DNA from: Escherichia phage Ecp_YSF
DNA length: 53,268 bases
Sequence record: OR327751.1
Reading direction: 5' to 3' (one strand)
Shown here: piece by piece, positions 12,490-24,661 of the stretch
How the letters are laid out: the number at the start of each line of letters is the position of its first letter
How positions within the stretch are numbered: the stretch's first letter is position 1
Made by a program: the position numbers and the translations under genes
The notes under the pieces: model-generated
What the model saw: only the letters and a program-made list of their open reading frames with translations
What the model was told of the DNA's origin: nothing
Database searches by the model: none

Positions 12490-13805
12490 TGACTTCCAAG
12501 AAGAAAAACAATCTTTCTGTTAAAGTTGCAGATGGGTTAGAAAACCTCGTAACAGGGTTGGGCGGTCAGGCAGATAAGTCCACTTTTAACCAGTGGACTT
12601 TCTCAAACAAGAACGCGAACTATCGCGAACTTATGAACCGCTTCCGTGAGGACTGGGTTGCACAGAAAGTGTGTACCGTCATTCCTCAGGACATGACGCG
12701 TAAGTGGCGACATATTGATACCGAAGAAGGACGCAAAGCGGATAAGAAACTTCGTATCCGTAAGCTGTTCCGTGAAGCATATCAATGGGCCAGATTGTAT
12801 GGTACTTCATTTGTTCTGCTCGACCTGAAAGGTACGGGCAAACTTGATACACCATTGCGACTGGATAACTTGAAGACTGGATGTATTAAATCCATGAGAG
12901 TTATTGACCGCTCGCGCTTATTTGCCGCAGGGACTATGGTTCTGGACCCTATGAGTCCTCACTATGGTTTGCCAGAGTATTACACTTTGGCTGGATATCC
13001 CGGCTATATCCACTACACTCGTTTTCTTCGGTTCGAGGGTACTGAACTGCCGCTGTTCGAATTCCAACGTAACATGTGGTATTCCGATTCGGTACTTATT
13101 CCACTGCTGAAAACGATTGACCAATTCTACACAACTGCCGCTGCTGCTGCCAGCCTTGCCCAAGAAGCCACCATTGATGTGGTAACTGTTGAAGGCTTAC
13201 AATCTCTGCTTACATCACCGGAAGGTGAAGCTGCTGTGATGAAGCGCTTCAAACTTATGAAGCTGGCAAAGAGTATTTATAACGTCTTAATTCTCGACAA
13301 CACTGAGAAGTATGACACCAAGTCAATTGCACTATCTGGTGTGAAAGATTTGATTTGGGAATACTTAAAGATAGTTGCTGCCGCAGTTGGTATTCCGGCT
13401 ACACGTTTCCTTTCTGCATCTCCAGACGGTATGAACGCTACGGGCGAATCTGACCTCGTAAACTATATCGACTTGTTGACAGGCTTGCAGACTTCTGTGT
13501 TCGACCCTCGTTTAGATGTGGTAGACAAGATTGTCCAGGCGCACTTTGGCATCGAAGAATATGACTACGAATGGTTAGATATCTTCCCTGAATCCAATGT
13601 TGAGAAAGCGAAGCGAGCTAAAGATTTGGCATTCGCTGTTGACCTGCTGGTTAACAATGGCACTATAACTACCGAAGTTGCAAACGAAGTCATGTTCCAT
13701 TCGGGCGTGTTCGGAACTTGTGACCTTGGCAAGCCAAATCCTAATCCTCCTAACATCCAAAAGGGTAACGCAAGTGAAGCAAAACCAAAACCTGGTTCAG
13801 CTTAA
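12489..13805 (+). CDS. Portal protein
   Basis: 438-aa ORF directly after terminase and before head genes; composition typical of portal proteins. Assigned by position and size, not by a specific motif. Confidence 0.6.
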   Translation: MTSKKKNNLSVKVADGLENLVTGLGGQADKSTFNQWTFSNKNANYRELMNRFREDWVAQKVCTVIPQDMTRKWRHIDTEEGRKADKKLRIRKLFREAYQWARLYGTSFVLLDLKGTGKLDTPLRLDNLKTGCIKSMRVIDRSRLFAAGTMVLDPMSPHYGLPEYYTLAGYPGYIHYTRFLRFEGTELPLFEFQRNMWYSDSVLIPLLKTIDQFYTTAAAAASLAQEATIDVVTVEGLQSLLTSPEGEAAVMKRFKLMKLAKSIYNVLILDNTEKYDTKSIALSGVKDLIWEYLKIVAAAVGIPATRFLSASPDGMNATGESDLVNYIDLLTGLQTSVFDPRLDVVDKIVQAHFGIEEYDYEWLDIFPESNVEKAKRAKDLAFAVDLLVNNGTITTEVANEVMFHSGVFGTCDLGKPNPNPPNIQKGNASEAKPKPGSA

Positions 13806-14838
13806 CGACGAAGATACCGTGAATGAAGTAGTTTTGTTGAACGACAAGGCTACTTTGACGACCCGTCGTTTACGTGACTCTGGCGAGATGATTGCAGAAT
13901 GCACCATCGCTCGTACTGGCATTATGCTGTACAAGGCGAAAGAACTTGGTGAAATCGCAAAACATCTAGACCCAGAATCTATTTGCCGTGTTCGTACCAA
14001 GCCGGAAGTATTATTTGACGAAGCAACCATCGAAGGCTGTCGTTCAATTCCGGTAACTATCGGCCATCCGAAAAATGATGTTAACATCAAGAACAACAAA
14101 GAACTCCAGAAAGGGTTCATCGAAGGGCGTCCAGTTGCAGACGGTTCTTTCTTGGCTGCATCAATCGTTTTGAATGACGAGCAAGCTATTCGATTAGTTG
14201 ATTCTGGTGTTGACCAAATCTCCTTGGGCCATAATGCCGAACTGGCTGTATCAGAAGATGATGAAGCCGACTTCGATAAAGTTCGCATTATCCCTAACCA
14301 TGCTGCAATTGTTGTTCGTGGTCGTGCTCAGACTACTCGCATTGGTGACTCTGGTGAAGAGATTGCCATTGTTGATAAGGCAACCTTTGACGTTGTTGAA
14401 GCAGAGCGTGATGCAGCGCTTGACAAGATTAGCGTCCTTGAACAGAAACTTGCTGATGCAGAAACTGCACGACTATCCGATGAAGCTATCCAGGCTGAGG
14501 TAGACAAACGTGTAGTTGCTCGTACAGCATTGCTTGTTGATGTGGCCCGTCTTGGCGACGAGTTCTCCAACCTCGATTTCTCCGGCAAGACCGATGCGGA
14601 AATTAAGTTGGCTGTAGTTAATAAATTGCATGACAAGGATTTCAGCGATAAGAGCGAAGACTATATCTCCGCCCGTTTCGATGCAGCTCTTGAAGATTGC
14701 GATTCCATTACTTTGGGAGATGCCCTGAATCAGTCTATGCAATTCTCTGCTAAGAAAGATTCAGAAGCTCGTAAACCTAAAGTTTCTATTTCCGAAGAAG
14801 CTAACAAACGTCGTTTAGAACGCTTCAACTCTTTATAA
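13774..14838 (+). CDS. Head scaffolding / head morphogenesis protein
   Basis: C-terminal half is charged and coiled-coil-like (LEQKLADAETARLSDEAIQAEVDKR). Start ambiguous: track ORF begins 13678 inside portal; GTG 13774, GTG 13819 or ATG 13888 are possible. Confidence 0.45.
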   Translation: MKQNQNLVQLNDEDTVNEVVLLNDKATLTTRRLRDSGEMIAECTIARTGIMLYKAKELGEIAKHLDPESICRVRTKPEVLFDEATIEGCRSIPVTIGHPKNDVNIKNNKELQKGFIEGRPVADGSFLAASIVLNDEQAIRLVDSGVDQISLGHNAELAVSEDDEADFDKVRIIPNHAAIVVRGRAQTTRIGDSGEEIAIVDKATFDVVEAERDAALDKISVLEQKLADAETARLSDEAIQAEVDKRVVARTALLVDVARLGDEFSNLDFSGKTDAEIKLAVVNKLHDKDFSDKSEDYISARFDAALEDCDSITLGDALNQSMQFSAKKDSEARKPKVSISEEANKRRLERFNSL

Positions 14839-14847
14839 GGTAAGACA

Positions 14848-15321
14848 ATGCCAAAGCAAGATTGGTCTATTAATACTGGTGAAGCATATGCAGGTGAACA
14901 ATATGGCCTGGCTACCACCAACTCCCAGCGCCTGACCTACGTTGCCGAAGAAGAAATGGCAAACTTTGGTCTGGCTGTTGTTCAAGGTACAGCTTCTAAT
15001 CAGGTTAAACCTGGTATTGGTTCTGATGGCACTGTTCTGGGCATTACCATGCGCCAGATTAATATCGAATCCGCTACTCGTCCTGGTGACGGTACTGTTG
15101 CAATCAAAGTTGGCTGGCCTCTGGGTGTTATGCTGTCTGGCCCAATCATGGTCAAACTGAAAACTGCAATCACCGACAAGAACATTGGCGTATCCACTAA
15201 AGGCGAATTTGGCGGTGTTGGTGCTGGGTATACTAAAGCAACCAACCTGACTGCCCTGCGTTATCCGGCTTCCGCTGGCGATGTTGTCCCGGTCATGATT
15301 AACGTAGTCCCAAAGCCGTAA
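14848..15321 (+). CDS. Small head protein (putative decoration protein), zero-frame product
   Basis: 157 aa, Gly/Val-rich, immediately upstream of major capsid gene; ends 4 nt after a CCCAAAG slippery heptamer. Confidence 0.5.
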   Translation: MPKQDWSINTGEAYAGEQYGLATTNSQRLTYVAEEEMANFGLAVVQGTASNQVKPGIGSDGTVLGITMRQINIESATRPGDGTVAIKVGWPLGVMLSGPIMVKLKTAITDKNIGVSTKGEFGGVGAGYTKATNLTALRYPASAGDVVPVMINVVPKP

Positions 15322-15614
15322 CGCCACCTCCAGCCCCTACAGTATCTGCTGTAGCTGGAGTTGTAACGGCTGATGCGTCTTCTACTGATGCCACTGTAAC
15401 TGTAGACAAGCTGTTCAAGTTTGGGAACTCTACAGCAACAGATTATAACTTCGCTGTTACACCTCCTGTGACTGGTGTTTCTGTGGCGGCAAACGGCACT
15501 GTGACTGTCTTGAATGAGACGACCACAGAGACTTCTGCTACAATTAAGGCAACAAACAAAACAACCTCTAGCGTAACTGCGACCAAAGAAATTACCATTA
15601 CGCCGAAGGCTTAA
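15309..15614 (+). other. Predicted -1 programmed frameshift site and Ig-like C-terminal extension of the upstream head protein
   Basis: Heptamer C_CCA_AAG at 15309-15315; -1 frame open from 15303 to TAA at 15612-15614 with no usable start codon; encodes about 100 aa rich in T/S/V/A. Hairpin CCAGC..TACAG/CTGTA..GCTGG at 15330-15358. Confidence 0.5.
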
Positions 15615-15669: not shown

Positions 15670-16677
15670 ATGCCTAAGATGATTAAACTGGCGGACGGTT
15701 CTGAATTTGAACTGAACGACGCTATCACCCGTATTCAGGATTCTGGCACTGTTGTCCTGAATGACGACGATGCAGTATTCTTTCAACGCCAGCTTGAGTT
15801 CATTGAAGCTCAAACTTACGACACTCTGTATCCAGAACTGGAAGCTCGTGCTGCTTTCGGTGTGGACACCACTGGTGGCGCTGGCGTAAACACTCTGACC
15901 TACCGTTCCTACAACCATGTTGGCAAAGCCCAGGTAATTAACGCCCGTGCAACCGACCTGCCGAAGTCCAGCATTTCTGGTAAAGAATACAGCATCCCTG
16001 TTAAATCAGTTGGTACTGCATTCGACTACGATATTGACGAAGTAGCGTCTGCTGCTGTTACTGGCCTCCCGCTGGAAACTCGTAAAGCGAATGCTGCTAT
16101 TCGTGGTTACGAGCAGTATGTTAACTCTGCTGCATGGTACGGCGATAAAGCTAACGGCTTTGTTGGCTTCTTCGAAAACCCAGACATTACCAAAGCAACT
16201 GTTGCTCAGGGTGCTGGTGGTTCTACCAAGTGGGCCGAGAAGACCCCGACCGAAGTTATTGCCGACCTGACTGCTGCTGTGTCTGCAATGTATGCTTCTA
16301 CTCTGAAAATTATGCGCCCGGATGAAATCTGGATGCCTGTTGAGCATGAGCAGTACATCTTCAACACTGCACGTTCTGAACAGTCTGATAAGACGATTGG
16401 TCAGTTCTTCATTGACAACAACCAGTTCATCAACTCCCGCGATAAAATCAAGGGTCTGAACGCAATCAAAGGTCACGGCGATTCTGGCTCCGATTGCTTC
16501 GTTGTTGTTTGCCGCAATGCAATGGGCAACCGTACTTTCCGTCTGCGTGAGCCTCTGCCACTGACCTGGCAACCGGTACAGCTTCATGGTCTGGTTTATG
16601 AAGTTCCTGGCCGTGGTCGTTTCGCTGGCTTCCAAGCGATGTACCCGGCAGCAATCTCCATCAACTCCGGCATCTGA
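15670..16677 (+). CDS. Major capsid protein
   Basis: About 335 aa, directly after scaffold and decoration genes. ATG at 15670 preferred over the track's 15637 alternative start. Confidence 0.7.
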   Translation: MPKMIKLADGSEFELNDAITRIQDSGTVVLNDDDAVFFQRQLEFIEAQTYDTLYPELEARAAFGVDTTGGAGVNTLTYRSYNHVGKAQVINARATDLPKSSISGKEYSIPVKSVGTAFDYDIDEVASAAVTGLPLETRKANAAIRGYEQYVNSAAWYGDKANGFVGFFENPDITKATVAQGAGGSTKWAEKTPTEVIADLTAAVSAMYASTLKIMRPDEIWMPVEHEQYIFNTARSEQSDKTIGQFFIDNNQFINSRDKIKGLNAIKGHGDSGSDCFVVVCRNAMGNRTFRLREPLPLTWQPVQLHGLVYEVPGRGRFAGFQAMYPAAISINSGI

Positions 16678-20362: not shown

Positions 20363-20821
20363 ATGGCTTGTGAACTTCGTCAACGCGAGTTACAAGCCGA
20401 CTCTGGTGATGTAGTCTTGGTTGGTACTCGTCAATTGAGTGCCAGCCAAGCTCTTGACCTACAAGTCGAGCTTGTTCAGAAACTTGGAACTTCAATCTTC
20501 CCATTCGTTGAGAATAAATATAACTTTGCAGACATTATTTATTTAATGCAGCAAGGTGGGACGAGTAACGAAGTAACAGAATTAATTAAACGTGTAGTGT
20601 GTATGGCAACCATTGATGGTGTCGAAGTTACTCCACGCACTATGCAAATGAAATACAACGGCAACTTGATGCTTATGCACCATGTGTTTGCATTTGTTTT
20701 GGAATCGAACTTCCTTGATTTTTTCAAGCAAGGGCTCGAACTCAACGAACGCAGACGATTGGAGGCGGTGGAAGCATCCAAGATGGCCGAGCAGAAGAAT
20801 TCGAGTCCGGAAACGATTTAA
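20363..20821 (+). CDS. Tail assembly chaperone (G-like), zero-frame product
   Basis: 152 aa directly upstream of tape-measure gene; contains a T_TTT_TTC slippery heptamer. Confidence 0.55.
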   Translation: MACELRQRELQADSGDVVLVGTRQLSASQALDLQVELVQKLGTSIFPFVENKYNFADIIYLMQQGGTSNEVTELIKRVVCMATIDGVEVTPRTMQMKYNGNLMLMHHVFAFVLESNFLDFFKQGLELNERRRLEAVEASKMAEQKNSSPETI

Positions 20822-20997
20822 CTGCAAAGTTCCCGGAAATAAAATACTTCTTGCACCGTCCTGTAATAGAGGACAGTTCACTCTGTTCTCTTAAAGAGTT
20901 ACAAGATGGGACCTACTCTATTATGGATTTGTTGACCTTCCACGCAATACTCGATTTGCGTAACGAATTAAAACCTAAAGAAGAAGACAATGGCTAA
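20719..20997 (+). other. Predicted -1 frameshift extension of tail assembly chaperone (GT-like product)
   Basis: Heptamer T_TTT_TTC at 20719-20725; -1 frame is open for 93 codons from 20719 to TAA at 20995-20997, ending at the tape-measure start. Confidence 0.5.
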
Positions 20998-23900
20998 TAA
21001 CATAAAAGATTTGATGAGAATGTCCGAAGCCGAATTGATTGGCTTAGGCGCTCAATATGGTCTGTCGTTCAATCCAGGTATGCGCAAACGAGATATGGCA
21101 CAGCAACTTGAATCAAGTGCTGCATCTGGTTGGATGGAAACAAATTCGCAGCTTATGGAAGAAACCCATACAGAAGATGATGGCATCTCTTATGGCACTT
21201 CCGACATGATTTCAGACTCAGCCCACATTGCACAGATGATTTCTGGCGCTGGGCTGACTGAAACATTCCATGCTGCAATGAACGGTCCAAGTCACCATGT
21301 AGAAGCTATTCATGCCTACATGGAGAAATTAGGTGTATCCGCCGATGATGTGTGGATGCACATGCCCAAAGCAAACCCGAACAAACCGGAAGGTCATTGG
21401 GGAATGCTTAATGCGTACATGCGTGATACGCTGACAGGCCATCAAGATATAATGCCAGAGCTTCCTGGACATTATTCGGGCGACATTATGGGCGAGTATT
21501 CCACAAACCGTGGAGATATTGCCAAGTCGTTCGGCTATCTTGCCCACATGTATGTTGACCGTGAACAATACGACAACCCAGACCGCTATGCACGAGATGT
21601 TTATCGTGTAGCCAAACGTTTAGAATCAGAATTGCCGCAAAACTTCCGAGAAGTTGCTGCGGTATCTGCAATGAATGTAGGAAATAAGTCGGGGCCAAAA
21701 CTTTCATACATGGATTCATTGCCTAAACTTGGCTCTGAATCAATTGTTAGTGGTATCCAACACCCTCGACAGCCACTTAACGCATCTGGTTTACCACTTG
21801 GTTCATTTGGCAGCGGTATTAATGCCGAATACTCATTATCTGCATCCTTGTCTGGCTCGCCAGGCTGGTCTGATGTAAGTAGGACTCTGTACCAAGATGT
21901 TTCTAGCGTAGTTAAGTCTGCGGCAAAGGTCTATTCTGGTGATTCTGAAAGAGGAATGAACGCGTACCGCACTCAATCTTCTGACAGAGATTTGATTCTT
22001 GATTCTGCTTCCCGCTATGCAGACATTATAGATGTTCGTTCTGGGTATGAGAATCTTAAGAAAGATATTGGTGACGACCCTCGCTACTCTGGTGCATCCA
22101 TCCGTGGCGTACTTGAGAATGCTCACCAATATAATGAGGCAGAGGTAAGCAAGACATTTGACCCTGCTGAACGCTTAAGAAACACTGAACCTGCCGAACT
22201 AAGCCCTTCAACAGAGTTTATTACGCAACTCGATTCACCAACGAGTTGGAACTCTGCTCGCGCTCGTCGTGAGAGTATTGCTATATCTAACTTGGACTCT
22301 GCTCCACAACCAGCTCCGAAAGAAGGCCCAATCCATTATCACAACATGGAACAGGGAACTCAGGAATGGTTGGACTTCCGCAAACAATACGACATTACTG
22401 GCTCCACTGTTGGTTCGTTTCTTGGTAACAATGAATACACCCGACCTTGGGCTGCAATGATTGATAAAATTGGCCTACAACGCGGAAAGGGGCCAAGTGA
22501 ATTTACTAAAAGAATGTTCGAAGCAGGTCATCGGACGGAAGAAATTGCTCGTAACCGTGTCGCCAAAGAGTTTGGATTCGATATCGAGCAAGCTGGCGCA
22601 ATAACAAATGACAATTATCCGTCGTTCATGTATTCTCCAGATGGCCTTATCGGTGATGACGCGATTTGGGAACACAAGAATCCTGAAAGGGCTAAAAAGT
22701 TTTCTAATCTCTCTGCTGGCGAGCATAAGGACTATTTCGACCAAATTCAATTTGGCTTGCTTGTATCTGGCCGTAGTCGTGCACTGTTCTCTCAGACAAT
22801 CGGGGACAAGACGGTATCTGAGTGGATTGAGAAAGACGAGGGATGGTACGAGCGCAACAAAGATAAGATTGATTCTACTATTGGGCGTCTCAATGCTGGT
22901 CGAAAGTTTGTTGAAGATAATCCAGACTTACCTAATGATGAGTTAATCAAGGGTGCTCGTGCTGCAATGACTGGCGATGGCATCTGGAAAGATGTTAAGC
23001 AAAGGTCGACTCGTGGATATTCTGCCGCAGCTGGAACACCTGATGACCCATTCATAGGCAACCGCACTGATGCTGGAATTGGCGAGGCCACGACTTCTGC
23101 CGTAGGCTCTGACAGCACGACTGGCAATGACTCGATGGCAGTATCTGTCAAGAAAGGTATTCTTGCTGCACAGGAAGAAAACAAACTGCGCGGACAAGAT
23201 GCCGACTTTGGTGGAAATGATGGTCGTGGTGGCGGTGGTGGCTTCTGGGATACATTTGATGCCAGCAGTTATGGTATCAGCGGAGGTGGTTCTGGTGGCG
23301 GTGGTCGTGGTGGTTGGAGAGTTGGCGGTAGCTTCTCAGATGACTTCGGTCGTGCTGGTGGGGCATTGGCTGCTGGCGTAGCTGGTGGCAGTATTGGTTC
23401 ATTATCCAATGGCGCAATGAATGCCCTCATGATGACTCCTTGGGGTCGTGTAGCTGGCATGGCTATTGGTGCTGCCCAGATTGGAAACGAAGCTCTGGAA
23501 GGTCTGAACGACTTCTATGGCAATTCTTTAGATGCTGGTGTTAATAATCCTAACGAGTATTCTTCCATGACTCAGGGCATGGAAATGTTGGGACTTAACT
23601 CACAACAAGCCAATCGACTCAATCAAACCACACATAGTGCCTATAACACCCTCCTAAATGGCGACCCCAGCGGCGCTGTGAACATCGTTCAGGGAACCCG
23701 TGGTCTTATCACAATTGGCGACATTCGTGCGGCACAGGGCGACCCTGTGGCCCTAGCGCGGATAATGCGTGAGCGTGGTCAGGAACGGGGTTGGAGTCAG
23801 GCCCGTATTGCTGGTGCAATGCAAATGGCTGGTCTGGATGGTATGGCTCGTGCCTATGACCGTACAGAATACAGCATGGGCGAGGCTGAGGCGAACGTTA

Positions 23901-24661
23901 AGCGCGGAGCCGACTCAAACTATGCCGAAGGCGTTGCACAGCTAGGAATCGCGCAGACGGAGCGTGCTGGCGTACTGCCTGGATACGCTGTTCCGCAAGC
24001 TGCAATTTCATACGGCAGCACCTTTATTGAGGCAGGTGGTGACGCAGCCAGAGTGATGCGTATGACCTCCAACGGTACAGCCGATGCAGCACGTAATGTT
24101 TATGACTTTATCGCGGGAGAAGAGTCAGGGAACCGCGATTTTAACGCAGATGGTTCGGTAGTTACATCGCCAACTGGTGCTAAAGGTCGTATGCAAGTTC
24201 TTGATTCAACTTCTCGTGACCCTGGCTTTGGTGTTCGTCCTGCCAAAGATAACTCACTTGAAGAACGTGCTCGTGTTGGTCGTGATTATTACGATGCAAT
24301 GCTTAAGCGATATAATGGTGACGCTGAGAAGGCTATGGCGGCGTATACAGATGGTGCCGGGACTGTTGATGATGCTATCAACAAACATGGAACCGACTGG
24401 CTGAACGCTGTTCCACTACAGGCACAGAACCGTGTCAAGAAGTACCGCGAATGGGCTTCTCAGGGAGATTCTATTGCAGAAGGTGCAACTGGATTCACCA
24501 GAAACGGACTGTCCTATGGTCAGACACAGCCCACCATAGTTAACGTTGAAGTCAAAGCTACCGTAAACAACAAACAAGCGTCTGCAACCGTGTCAACTCC
24601 GAACGGTCAAACTGTTACCCAAACAATCAACATGGGTAATGGTGCAATGGAACGCAGATAA
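20990..24661 (+). CDS. Tape-measure-like protein with embedded YqaJ-like PD-(D/E)xK nuclease domain and C-terminal lytic transglycosylase domain
   Basis: 1223 aa after chaperone. Central block QGTQEWLDFRKQYDITGSTVGSFLG ... EAGHRTEE ... SPDGLIGDDAIWEHKNPE (about nt 22340-22800); Gly-rich hydrophobic stretch about nt 23200-23450; SLT-like ESGNRDF ... GAKGRMQVLDSTSRD (about nt 24100-24420). Confidence 0.6.
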   Translation: MANNIKDLMRMSEAELIGLGAQYGLSFNPGMRKRDMAQQLESSAASGWMETNSQLMEETHTEDDGISYGTSDMISDSAHIAQMISGAGLTETFHAAMNGPSHHVEAIHAYMEKLGVSADDVWMHMPKANPNKPEGHWGMLNAYMRDTLTGHQDIMPELPGHYSGDIMGEYSTNRGDIAKSFGYLAHMYVDREQYDNPDRYARDVYRVAKRLESELPQNFREVAAVSAMNVGNKSGPKLSYMDSLPKLGSESIVSGIQHPRQPLNASGLPLGSFGSGINAEYSLSASLSGSPGWSDVSRTLYQDVSSVVKSAAKVYSGDSERGMNAYRTQSSDRDLILDSASRYADIIDVRSGYENLKKDIGDDPRYSGASIRGVLENAHQYNEAEVSKTFDPAERLRNTEPAELSPSTEFITQLDSPTSWNSARARRESIAISNLDSAPQPAPKEGPIHYHNMEQGTQEWLDFRKQYDITGSTVGSFLGNNEYTRPWAAMIDKIGLQRGKGPSEFTKRMFEAGHRTEEIARNRVAKEFGFDIEQAGAITNDNYPSFMYSPDGLIGDDAIWEHKNPERAKKFSNLSAGEHKDYFDQIQFGLLVSGRSRALFSQTIGDKTVSEWIEKDEGWYERNKDKIDSTIGRLNAGRKFVEDNPDLPNDELIKGARAAMTGDGIWKDVKQRSTRGYSAAAGTPDDPFIGNRTDAGIGEATTSAVGSDSTTGNDSMAVSVKKGILAAQEENKLRGQDADFGGNDGRGGGGGFWDTFDASSYGISGGGSGGGGRGGWRVGGSFSDDFGRAGGALAAGVAGGSIGSLSNGAMNALMMTPWGRVAGMAIGAAQIGNEALEGLNDFYGNSLDAGVNNPNEYSSMTQGMEMLGLNSQQANRLNQTTHSAYNTLLNGDPSGAVNIVQGTRGLITIGDIRAAQGDPVALARIMRERGQERGWSQARIAGAMQMAGLDGMARAYDRTEYSMGEAEANVKRGADSNYAEGVAQLGIAQTERAGVLPGYAVPQAAISYGSTFIEAGGDAARVMRMTSNGTADAARNVYDFIAGEESGNRDFNADGSVVTSPTGAKGRMQVLDSTSRDPGFGVRPAKDNSLEERARVGRDYYDAMLKRYNGDAEKAMAAYTDGAGTVDDAINKHGTDWLNAVPLQAQNRVKKYREWASQGDSIAEGATGFTRNGLSYGQTQPTIVNVEVKATVNNKQASATVSTPNGQTVTQTINMGNGAMERR

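What the first reader, a model, noticed from the sequence alone, without database searches (positions are those of the whole stretch)
14848..15614. Predicted -1 programmed frameshift adds an Ig-like, Thr/Ser/Val-rich domain to a small head protein
The head-protein ORF ends at 15321, four nt after a canonical slippery heptamer C_CCA_AAG (15309-15315). The -1 frame has a stop at 15300-15302 and is then open to 15612-15614 with no usable start codon, encoding about 100 aa that resemble a bacterial Ig-like domain. A bulged hairpin at 15330-15358 could stimulate slippage, though the spacer is about 14 nt, longer than typical. Ig-like capsid extensions made by frameshifting are known in other phages.
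Basis: partly seen in the sequence, partly recalled or inferred. Interest (0 to 1): 0.6.

Follow-up and report, generated by a model that had tools for sequence, protein, structure and literature searches.

The report
Frameshift adds Ig domain to capsid cement
A small capsid "cement" protein of this phiEcoM-GJ1-like coliphage almost certainly gets an Ig-like surface domain on a minority of its copies through a -1 ribosomal slip at C_CCA_AAG, a known phage trick that databases have missed in this whole phage group.

Summary
No experiment has tested it.

- **The gene:** ORF 14848-15321 encodes a capsid cement/decoration protein (Pfam PF22758, Pam3 gp6-like fold). It lies between the prohead protease and the major capsid gene of a Chaseviridae (Carltongylesvirus-like) phage.
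- **The slip site:** the heptamer C_CCA_AAG (15309-15315) is in the shifty frame, one codon before the stop.
- **The extension:** the -1 frame is open from 15303 to 15614. From the slip site it encodes a Pro-rich linker plus a confidently predicted Ig-like domain (pLDDT 94.5).
- **Coding signal:** the -1 frame is under purifying selection from the heptamer onward (dN/dS 0.16). It has no ATG and no conserved start.
- **Co-occurrence:** all 32 distinct relatives with the in-frame heptamer carry a 94-193-residue -1 extension. All 11 without the heptamer lack the extension. Proteus phage Myduc (G_GCA_AAG-TAA) is the one exception.
- **Domain swapping:** several unrelated Ig-like domains, single or tandem, sit behind the same slip site. 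No in-frame fusion turned up.
- **The hairpin:** it is real and unusually stable in this window (z -3.2), but it is conserved only within the genus. The stimulator is therefore unresolved.

GenBank records annotate the extension as a separate ORF with inconsistent starts, or not at all. This is a new member of a known kind, of moderate interest.

The parts
14848..15321 (+). Capsid cement/decoration protein gene; the 0-frame product is 157 aa, 16.3 kDa
   Evidence: Pfam PF22758 Phage_cement, E 2.5e-17. PHROG 563. AF2 model pLDDT 85.7, with the best PDB fold match to the Pam3 cement protein 8hdt_G at TM 0.72; other matches include T1, FCWL1, XM1, E217 and the phi29 gp8.5 base.
15309..15315 (+). 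Slippery heptamer C_CCA_AAG in the X_XXY_YYZ register, the proposed -1 shift site
   Evidence: Read directly from the sequence. Present in frame in 32 of 32 distinct relatives that carry an extension, apart from Myduc. Most efficient heptamer in E. coli (PMC4066793).
15319..15321 (+). 0-frame stop codon TAA, one codon after the heptamer
   Evidence: In every extension-bearing locus the stop lies 0 or 1 codon after the heptamer. It is created by an invariant GTA Val codon in the -1 frame.
15300..15302 (+). Last stop (TAA) in the -1 frame upstream of the shift site
   Evidence: It shows that the -1 ORF cannot be entered from further upstream.
15315..15614 (+). -1 frame extension, 99 codons plus stop, read after the slip (AVTPPPAP...ITITPKA*)
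   Evidence: Translation. dN/dS 0.16 in this frame against 1.4 and 1.75 in the other two. Variable columns by codon position are 37/38/92. In the first 28 codons alone they are 7/7/24.
15315..15341 (+). Pro-rich linker AVTPPPAPT
   Evidence: Conserved as [AV][VA][TA]PP(P)AP even in lineages whose downstream domain is a different family. No regular secondary structure in the AF2 model for residues 1-8.
15339..15602 (+). Ig-like beta-sandwich domain, extension residues 9-96
   Evidence: AF2 pLDDT 94.5 with nine beta strands. Foldseek matches the T5 pb6 Ig domain at E 3.8e-4, and at weaker E-values (0.004-0.02) phi29 gp8 and invasin. BFVD matches include Big_2/Ig-like phage proteins. PHROG 13745 'Ig domain containing protein', E 1e-7.
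15316..15369 (+). Predicted mRNA structure 3' of the heptamer. The strong part is 15328-15360; the genus-conserved core hairpin is 15337-15354.
   Evidence: MFE -22.1 kcal/mol, z -3.2. The core 5-7 bp stem is kept within the genus, with one compensatory A-U to C-G change and several G-U changes. It is not conserved in other genera.
13678..14838 (+). Upstream neighbour: prohead protease/scaffold (DUF2213). The start coordinate is the ORF-list start; relatives are annotated from later starts.
   Evidence: Pfam PF09979, E 9e-31; PHROG 530.
15670..16677 (+). Downstream neighbour: major capsid protein gene. It begins 55 nt after the extension's stop.
   Evidence: Pfam PF09950, E 1.5e-48. In relatives without an extension this gene follows the cement gene after only 9-96 nt.

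Best explanation
The gene at 14848-15321 encodes the trimeric cement (decoration) protein, which by homology sits on the three-fold and quasi-three-fold positions of a T=7 capsid.

Most ribosomes terminate at 15319-15321 and make the 157-aa protein. A minority slip back one nucleotide while decoding C_CCA_AAG: tRNA-Pro re-pairs CCA to CCC, and tRNA-Lys re-pairs AAG to AAA. These ribosomes continue in the -1 frame through a Pro-rich linker and a ~90-residue Ig-like domain to the stop at 15612-15614. The result is a 255-aa, 26-kDa isoform (...VVPK-AVTPPPAP...).

The long isoform would co-assemble into cement trimers through its unchanged N-terminal part. It would display the Ig-like domain on the outside of a fraction of the about 420 cement positions, probably as a weak adhesin for host or environmental glycans.

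Shown here: the sequence anatomy, the conservation and co-variation of heptamer and extension, coding selection in the -1 frame from the heptamer on, the lack of a start codon, and the predicted folds of both parts.

Inferred: that slippage happens and how often, capsid incorporation, outward display, and adhesin function.
For: - **Anatomy:**
- **Heptamer strength:** C_CCA_AAG is the strongest -1 heptamer in E. coli. It gave 54% frameshifting with the IS3 pseudoknot, about 0.3% alone, and up to about 3.7% with the best 3' context (PMC4066793; also PMC5009743).
- **Co-occurrence:** 32 of 32 distinct loci with an in-frame C_CCA_AAG/A have a -1 extension of 94-193 residues and a 297-630 nt gap to the capsid gene. 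11 of 11 loci without a heptamer have a 9-96 nt gap and no extension. Fisher p = 1.6e-9, not corrected for phylogeny.
- **Phylogenetic spread:** lineages without the heptamer are interspersed in the cement-protein tree, which implies several coupled loss or gain events.
- **Coding selection:** dN/dS is 0.16 in the -1 frame. The constraint is already present in the first 28 codons, upstream of the commonly called starts.
- **No start:** no extension has an ATG in or before its N-terminal half (the only one, in Myduc, is at codon 80), and no GTG or TTG is conserved. Database ORFs begin at six or more different positions.
- **Domain swapping:** at least four different Ig-like sequence families, and tandem duplications in flopper, JL1 and L037, occupy the same -1 slot behind the same heptamer and linker.
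- **No in-frame fusion:** none was found among 87 cement clusters in a search of 5.8 billion proteins. About 70 of the 87 end in PK plus 0-1 residue.
- **Folds:** the extension is Ig-like. The carrier matches Pam3 gp6-type cement proteins and the base of the phi29 head fibre gp8.5.
- **Copy number:** Pam3, with a similar genome size, has 140 cement trimers (PMC9942802).
Against: - No protein-level evidence (mass spectrometry, gel or western) for the 26-kDa isoform was found for any member of the family.
- No universally conserved stimulator exists. The downstream hairpin is genus-specific and sits 12 nt after the heptamer, or 23 nt for its conserved core, which is further than the usual 5-9 nt. 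Several extension-bearing relatives have no significant downstream structure. No upstream Shine-Dalgarno-like element is visible.
- Without a stimulator the measured efficiency of this heptamer is only about 0.3%, which would give roughly one long isoform per capsid.
- Proteus phage Myduc keeps an extension behind a non-canonical G_GCA_AAG.
- The co-occurrence statistics are not phylogenetically independent.
Confidence: 0.85

Rival explanations
1. The Ig-like ORF is a separate small gene. It would be translated on its own from a non-ATG or non-canonical start, or by termination-reinitiation after the cement gene's stop. This is how many GenBank records annotate it.
For: GenBank and RefSeq records annotate 48-185-aa ORFs here, such as 'Ig domain containing protein' in ST32 gp56, Y2 gp67 and SSEM1 gp73. 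GTG or TTG codons occur inside the ORF. The 0-frame stop lies within a few nucleotides, so reinitiation is physically conceivable.
Against: - No candidate start is conserved, and annotated starts differ between close relatives.
- In the window the first GTG is at codon 52 of 99. PM1 has only a TTG at codon 33, and no Shine-Dalgarno sequence lies upstream of any candidate.
- Purifying selection in the -1 frame already acts on the linker and the first strands, upstream of the commonly called starts.
- The predicted Ig fold uses residues 9-96, so internal starts would truncate it.
- This model does not explain why the in-frame heptamer co-occurs perfectly with the ORF.
Confidence: 0.07
2. The shift to the -1 frame is made at the RNA level, by transcriptional slippage of the phage or host RNA polymerase on the CCCAAA run, rather than by the ribosome.
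For: Transcriptional slippage produces trans-frame proteins in some bacterial and IS genes (reviewed in PMC5009743). These phages encode their own single-subunit RNA polymerase (PMC12842549).
Against: The homopolymer runs are only 3 nt (CCC, AAA). From established knowledge, productive slippage needs runs of about 7-9 or more. What is conserved is the codon register of the heptamer (X_XXY_YYZ), which matters for tRNA re-pairing and not for polymerase slippage. A second CCCAAAG at 21365 lies in the non-shifty register inside a long ORF with no associated alternative ORF.
Confidence: 0.02
3. The arrangement is a decaying or silent remnant. A once in-frame Ig fusion was broken by an indel, and the extension is no longer expressed at a meaningful level.
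For: Expected efficiency without a stimulator is low, about 0.3%. Several lineages have lost the extension entirely, so it is dispensable.
Against: dN/dS is 0.16 with an intact ORF in 33 distinct genomes spanning 54-100% cement-protein identity. Different Ig domains have been acquired repeatedly and one has been tandemly duplicated, always in the -1 frame. The AF2 confidence of 94.5 argues for a maintained fold. No relative has restored the frame, although a single-base indel would do so.
Confidence: 0.05

Closest known systems
Phage T3 (and T7) major capsid gene 10A/10B -1 frameshift
   Same: [quoted passage not shown] In T3 the extension is Ig-like (PMC5009743). This arrangement is used for sub-stoichiometric phage display (PMC13370021).
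   Different: The carrier here is the cement/decoration protein (PF22758), not the HK97-fold major capsid protein. The heptamer is C_CCA_AAG. The 0-frame stop lies 0-1 codon after the slip site. The appended domain is repeatedly swapped or duplicated among relatives.
Lactobacillus phage A2 major head protein gp5A/5B and the Listeria phage A118/A500/PSA capsid and tail frameshifts; Ig-like domains on phages (Fraser et al. 2006)
   Same: Ig-like C-terminal domains are added to virion proteins by programmed frameshifting. The idea that mobile Ig modules land out of frame and are then expressed by frameshifting is discussed in PMC5009743. From memory, not checked here: A2 uses a C_CCA_AAA heptamer with a downstream stem-loop.
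   Different: Those cases involve major head or tail tube proteins of siphoviruses that infect Gram-positive hosts. No frameshifted cement/decoration protein was found in the searchable literature.
Tail assembly chaperone gpG/gpGT-type -1 frameshift (lambda and most long-tailed phages)
   Same: A conserved -1 programmed frameshift in a phage structural module produces two N-terminally identical proteins at a fixed ratio. The same window appears to contain one at T_TTT_TTC, 20719-20725.
   Different: That product is an assembly chaperone that is not retained in virions. Here the long form is predicted to be a virion surface component.
In-frame Ig-bearing capsid decoration proteins (T4 Hoc, T5 pb10, phi29 head fibre gp8.5)
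   Same: These are accessory capsid-surface proteins that project Ig-like or fibrous domains outward. The cement fold here matches the base of phi29 gp8.5. The likely role is weak adhesion.
   Different: Those proteins carry their outward domains in frame, so every copy has them. Here only the frameshifted fraction would carry the domain.

Membership tests
Bacterial/phage -1 programmed ribosomal frameshift site (heptamer type) | X_XXY_YYZ heptamer in the correct register of the upstream ORF | tested here: met
   GT[C CCA AAG] CCG TAA at 15309-15315.
Bacterial/phage -1 programmed ribosomal frameshift site (heptamer type) | A -1 ORF that is open from the heptamer, extends well past the 0-frame stop, and has no initiation signal of its own | tested here: met
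   99 codons follow the slip site, with no ATG, no conserved GTG or TTG, and no Shine-Dalgarno sequence.
Bacterial/phage -1 programmed ribosomal frameshift site (heptamer type) | Heptamer and frame arrangement conserved in homologues; loss of one goes with loss of the other | tested here: met
   32 of 32 loci with the heptamer have the extension and 11 of 11 without it lack the extension. Myduc is the exception, with A_AAG plus a stop.
Bacterial/phage -1 programmed ribosomal frameshift site (heptamer type) | Protein-coding selection in the -1 frame downstream of the site | tested here: met
   dN/dS 0.16; variable columns by codon position 37/38/92, and 7/7/24 in the first 28 codons.
Bacterial/phage -1 programmed ribosomal frameshift site (heptamer type) | A stimulatory element: a 3' hairpin or pseudoknot about 5-9 nt downstream, or an upstream Shine-Dalgarno-like sequence | tested here: inconclusive
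   The window structure has z -3.2, but its strong stem starts 12 nt downstream. Only a short core is conserved within the genus, with one compensatory event, and it is absent in several genera. No upstream Shine-Dalgarno-like sequence is visible. The adjacent stop codon is the only universally conserved 3' feature.
Bacterial/phage -1 programmed ribosomal frameshift site (heptamer type) | Trans-frame protein demonstrated | not testable with these tools
   No proteomic data were found for any Chaseviridae member in the held literature.
Phage_cement (Pfam PF22758; E217 gp24 / Pam3 gp6) | Match to the family HMM above the gathering threshold | tested here: met
   63.8 bits against a cut-off of 27, covering residues 4-152.
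Phage_cement (Pfam PF22758; E217 gp24 / Pam3 gp6) | Fold of solved cement proteins (beta-tulip plus a beta C-domain) and a gene position between protease/scaffold and the major capsid protein | tested here: met
   Foldseek top hit 8hdt_G (Pam3), TM 0.72, E 7.5e-7; also T1, FCWL1, XM1 and E217. Gene order.
Phage_cement (Pfam PF22758; E217 gp24 / Pam3 gp6) | Trimers at three-fold or quasi-three-fold capsid positions | not testable with these tools
   Inferred from Pam3 (PMC9942802). No structure of a Chaseviridae capsid was found.
Bacterial Ig-like domain on phage virion proteins (Big_2-type, Fraser et al.) | Ig-like beta-sandwich fold | tested here: met
   AF2 pLDDT 94.5. Foldseek matches the T5 pb6 Ig domain at E 3.8e-4 and, at weaker E-values (0.004-0.02), phi29 gp8, invasin, SraP and Rib. 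BFVD matches include Big_2/Ig proteins.
Bacterial Ig-like domain on phage virion proteins (Big_2-type, Fraser et al.) | Match to the Pfam Big_2 (PF02368) HMM | tested here: not met
   No Big_2 hit at E <= 1. Only PHROG 13745 'Ig domain containing protein' hits, at 1e-7. Profile relatives sit in tandem with Big_2 domains on tail tube proteins. The domain is therefore Ig-like by fold but is not a sequence member of Big_2.

The most novel reading that the evidence does not exclude
The locus is a conserved, frameshift-gated display slot. A fixed C_CCA_AAG, stop codon and Pro-linker cassette at the end of the cement gene would meter expression to a few copies per capsid, while the Ig-like cargo behind it is freely exchanged or duplicated by recombination. 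Selection would act against in-frame fusion, meaning full occupancy is harmful to capsid assembly. The adjacent stop codon, rather than an RNA structure, would be the conserved stimulator.
Probability: 0.35. Interest if true: 0.55.

Novelty: new member of a known kind. Interest (0 to 1): 0.4.

Why it matters
**Annotation.** The finding would correct the annotation of a whole phage subfamily (Cleopatravirinae, more than 40 GenBank genomes). There the extension is left unannotated or called as a small ORF with arbitrary starts.

**Biology.** It extends the known "Ig domain by frameshift" strategy from major capsid and tail tube proteins to a cement/decoration protein.

**A natural experiment.** The pattern is strict coupling of heptamer and cargo, repeated cargo swapping and duplication, and no in-frame fusions. 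This offers a way to ask why some virion decorations must be sub-stoichiometric.

**Engineering.** The locus looks like a ready-made low-copy display site for engineering these therapeutic-candidate coliphages and the Erwinia and Pectobacterium phages.

**Host range.** The Ig domains may influence adsorption or mucus and surface adherence.

Tried and rejected
- **Independent start codon or Shine-Dalgarno for the extension.** I searched every locus. None is conserved.
- **Transcriptional slippage.** Rejected because the runs are too short and it is the codon register that is conserved.
- **Sequencing error or pseudogene.** Rejected because the same frame arrangement recurs in dozens of independently sequenced genomes and metagenomes.
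- **In-frame "Rosetta stone" fusions.** I looked for fusions of cement and Ig domains. There were none among 87 clusters. The distant Ig-domain relatives tested showed no cement domain; two are Big_2 proteins, one of them a tail tube protein.
- **A universally conserved 3' RNA stimulator.** Not found. Only a genus-level core hairpin is conserved.
- **An upstream Shine-Dalgarno-like stimulator.** None is visible.
- **The second CCCAAAG at 21365.** It is in the wrong register, inside the tape-measure ORF.
- **Prophage or bacterial-genome copies.** None found.
- **Locus L041.** It has the heptamer but only a 10-codon -1 ORF. It is a chimeric metagenome contig that breaks inside the linker.
- **Literature.** Searches for a prior description or for virion proteomics of ST32, PP101, PYps phages, Myduc and the ICTV profile found nothing. 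The phiEcoM-GJ1 paper is not held, and papers on Y2 and PM1 were not found in the searches.
Full report
**1. What the window is**

The region matches Chaseviridae phages of the subfamily Cleopatravirinae (phiEcoM-GJ1, ST32 and similar) at 84-98.5% nucleotide identity. The local gene order is terminase, portal, prohead protease/scaffold (DUF2213, 13678-14838), the ORF in question (14848-15321), then the major capsid protein (15670-16677).

The 157-aa ORF is a capsid cement/decoration protein.
- It hits Pfam PF22758 "Phage_cement (E217 gp24/Pam3 gp6)" at 63.8 bits, E 2.5e-17.
- An AlphaFold2 model built on 34 homologues has pLDDT 85.7.
- The best PDB fold match is the Pam3 cement protein (8hdt_G, TM 0.72). 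The decoration proteins of T1, FCWL1, HFTV1, XM1, E217 and TW1, and the base of the phi29 head fibre gp8.5, follow.
- Pam3 has a similar genome size. It carries 140 cement trimers on a T=7 shell, anchored through the N-terminal loop (PMC9942802).

**2. Checking the observation**

Every coordinate holds.
- The 0-frame reads ...GTA GT[C CCA AAG] CCG TAA. C_CCA_AAG (15309-15315) is therefore in the X_XXY_YYZ register, one sense codon before the stop at 15319-15321.
- The -1 frame has TAA at 15300-15302 and is then open for 103 codons to TAA at 15612-15614. The composition-based chance of such an open stretch is 0.0067.
- The frame contains no ATG. The first GTG, at 15468, lies in the middle of the domain.
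- Simultaneous slippage predicts ...VVPK-AVTPPPAP.... The products would be 157 aa (16.3 kDa) and 255 aa (26.1 kDa).

**3. Is the extension a real coding sequence?**

I compared 15 distinct homologous 99-codon extensions.
- Variable columns by codon position are 37/38/92.
- dN/dS is 0.16 in the -1 frame, against 1.4 and 1.75 in the other two frames.
- The signal is already present in the first 28 codons (7/7/24). These lie upstream of the starts that gene callers most often choose.

An AlphaFold2 model of the extension has pLDDT 94.5 and nine beta strands across residues 9-96.
- Foldseek matches the C-terminal Ig domain of T5 tail tube pb6 at E 3.8e-4. The Ig-like domain of phi29 gp8, invasin, SraP and Rib domains match at weaker E-values (0.004-0.02).
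- Among viral models it matches "Bacterial Ig-like domain" and Big_2 proteins, and Ig-bearing major capsid proteins.
- Pfam Big_2 does not hit by sequence. PHROG 13745 "Ig domain containing protein" does, at 1e-7.
- A profile search of 1.84 billion representative proteins found only 19 relatives. Some sit next to Big_2 domains on tail tube proteins.

**4. Comparative test of the frameshift**

I collected the locus from GenBank phages, IMG/VR, metagenomes and assemblies and tabulated the junctions.

- All 32 distinct loci with an in-frame C_CCA_AAG (one has C_CCA_AAA) carry a -1 extension of 94-193 residues. In these the gap to the capsid gene is 297-630 nt.
- All 11 loci without a heptamer lack an extension, and the capsid gene follows after 9-96 nt. 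Eight are Cleopatravirinae-like relatives whose cement proteins end in short in-frame Pro/Ala tails. Three are Nefertitivirinae.
- Fisher p is 1.6e-9. This is not corrected for phylogeny.
- In a neighbour-joining tree of the cement protein, the lineages without heptamer and extension are interspersed among those with both. L032, for example, is 86% identical to the window protein. This pattern implies several coupled events.
- The single exception is Proteus phage Myduc, which has G_GCA_AAG followed directly by TAA and a 111-codon extension. A_AAG is the best -1 tetramer in E. coli.
- L041, which looked like a second exception, is a chimeric contig that breaks inside the linker.

**5. No independent start, and no in-frame fusion**

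- No extension has an ATG in or before its N-terminal half; the only one, in Myduc, is at codon 80. GTG and TTG codons are not conserved and have no Shine-Dalgarno sequence upstream.
- Public annotations start the ORF at six or more different positions, or omit it, as in phiEcoM-GJ1, PM1, SKA49, PO103-1, Fifi451, Orgeat, Navette and PP101.
- No record annotates a frameshift.
- A search of 5.8 billion proteins with the predicted fusion returned 87 clusters. Almost all are cement-only proteins of about 157 aa; one (P0010) is an extension-only ORF. No in-frame fusion was found.
- About 70 of the 87 end in PK plus 0-1 residue, which is the protein footprint of the heptamer followed by an adjacent stop.

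**6. Modular cargo**

At least four sequence-unrelated extension types sit behind the same heptamer and [AV][VA][TA]PP(P)AP linker.

| Type | Where seen | Character |
|---|---|---|
| A | window, Faunus, 4HA13, Y2, SSEM1, Navette | Ig-like by fold |
| A' | PM1, PP101, Ep031, L043 | diverged version of A |
| B | Orgeat, L042, L054, L059 | Ig_3/SprB-like by Pfam |
| C | Fifi451, L044 | no Pfam hit |
| D | Myduc | weak Ig hits |

- Flopper, JL1 and L037 carry two tandem copies of type A.
- The types do not follow the cement-protein tree.
- The cargo has therefore been exchanged repeatedly while the shift site stayed in place. That is hard to explain unless the shift site is how the cargo is expressed.

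**7. Mechanism and stimulators**

- C_CCA_AAG is the most efficient heptamer measured in E. coli. It gave 54% frameshifting with the IS3 pseudoknot, about 0.3% without a stimulator, and up to about 3.7% with an optimal 3' context (PMC4066793). It is also described as "highly shift-prone" in PMC5009743.
- In the window, 15316-15375 folds to -22.1 kcal/mol, with z -3.2 and 0 of 200 shuffles reaching that energy. The strong stem (15328-15360) starts 12 nt after the heptamer, further than the usual 5-9 nt.
- Within the genus only a 5-7 bp core hairpin (15337-15354) is conserved. It shows one compensatory A-U to C-G event and several G-U changes.
- Across 33 loci the mean z is -1.4. Nine have z below -2. 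Y2, SSEM1, Navette, Orgeat, L042 and Myduc have no significant structure.
- No upstream Shine-Dalgarno-like element is visible.
- The only 3' feature conserved everywhere is the 0-frame stop, 0-1 codon after the heptamer. An invariant GTA Val codon in the -1 frame creates it.
- Whether that stop stimulates slippage (a "shifty stop") or simply defines the short product is open.
- Efficiency is therefore unknown. With about 420 cement copies per capsid, 0.3-5% would give roughly 1-20 Ig domains per virion (inference).

**8. Rivals**

- Independent initiation or reinitiation: confidence about 0.07.
- Silent remnant: about 0.05.
- Transcriptional slippage: about 0.02.
- Sequencing artefact: rejected.

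All are disfavoured by the evidence in sections 3-6.

**9. Relation to known systems and novelty**

Adding Ig-like domains to virion proteins by programmed frameshifting is established. Examples are the T3 coat protein, Lactobacillus phage A2 and Listeria phages A118, A500 and PSA (reviewed in PMC5009743).

This case works the same way but differs in four respects.
- The carrier is a cement/decoration protein.
- It is conserved across a phage subfamily.
- The stop codon is adjacent to the slip site.
- The cargo is swappable.

I found no description of it in the searchable literature. That includes the ST32 paper, the PYps, PP101 and Myduc papers and the ICTV Chaseviridae profile. I found no virion proteomics that could confirm it either. 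The original phiEcoM-GJ1 paper is not held, and no Y2 or PM1 genome paper surfaced in the searches.

**Verdict**

- It is a new member of a known kind.
- Interest is moderate, at 0.4.

Noticed in passing
window 20363-20995 (heptamer at 20719-20725): The 152-aa ORF 20363-20821 lies just upstream of the tape-measure-like ORF (20990-24661). It contains an in-frame T_TTT_TTC heptamer. From there the -1 frame is open for 92 codons and ends at the tape-measure start. This is probably the canonical tail-assembly-chaperone G/GT-type -1 frameshift.
   Followed up: partly
window 21365-21371: A second CCCAAAG lies inside the tape-measure ORF in the register CCC_AAA_G. That register is not shift-prone, and no alternative ORF is associated with it.
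   Followed up: yes
L003 (flopper) 2110-2697; L022 (JL1) 1610-2197; L037 1962-2543: In these close relatives the -1 extension is 193 codons long. It holds two tandem copies of the Ig-like domain joined by a PKPPAPT linker, so the cargo has been duplicated behind the same slip site.
   Followed up: partly
L014 (Proteus phage Myduc) 1965-2306: A non-canonical G_GCA_AAG is followed directly by TAA, yet it precedes a 111-codon -1 ORF encoding a different Ig-like domain. Either A-site-only slippage on A_AAG next to a stop is enough, or the extension is expressed some other way in this phage.
   Followed up: partly
L041 (OGVK01000246.1) 1962-2664: This metagenome contig has the cement gene, heptamer and the first 13 linker codons. 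It then switches abruptly to an unrelated 214-aa ORF, which looks like a chimeric assembly.
   Followed up: partly
L018 (Shigella phage vB_Shi_2KOFFS) 1971-2977: The closest relative (98.5% identity) has its major head protein annotated as two CDSs (1971-2570 and 2588-2977). This suggests a frameshift or stop in that record's capsid gene, possibly a sequencing error.
   Followed up: no
L023 (PP952070.1, 'Staphylococcus phage Pel53'): A phage recorded with Staphylococcus hyicus as host is about 89% identical in nucleotide sequence to these Enterobacterales phages, including the heptamer and extension. The host assignment looks doubtful.
   Followed up: no
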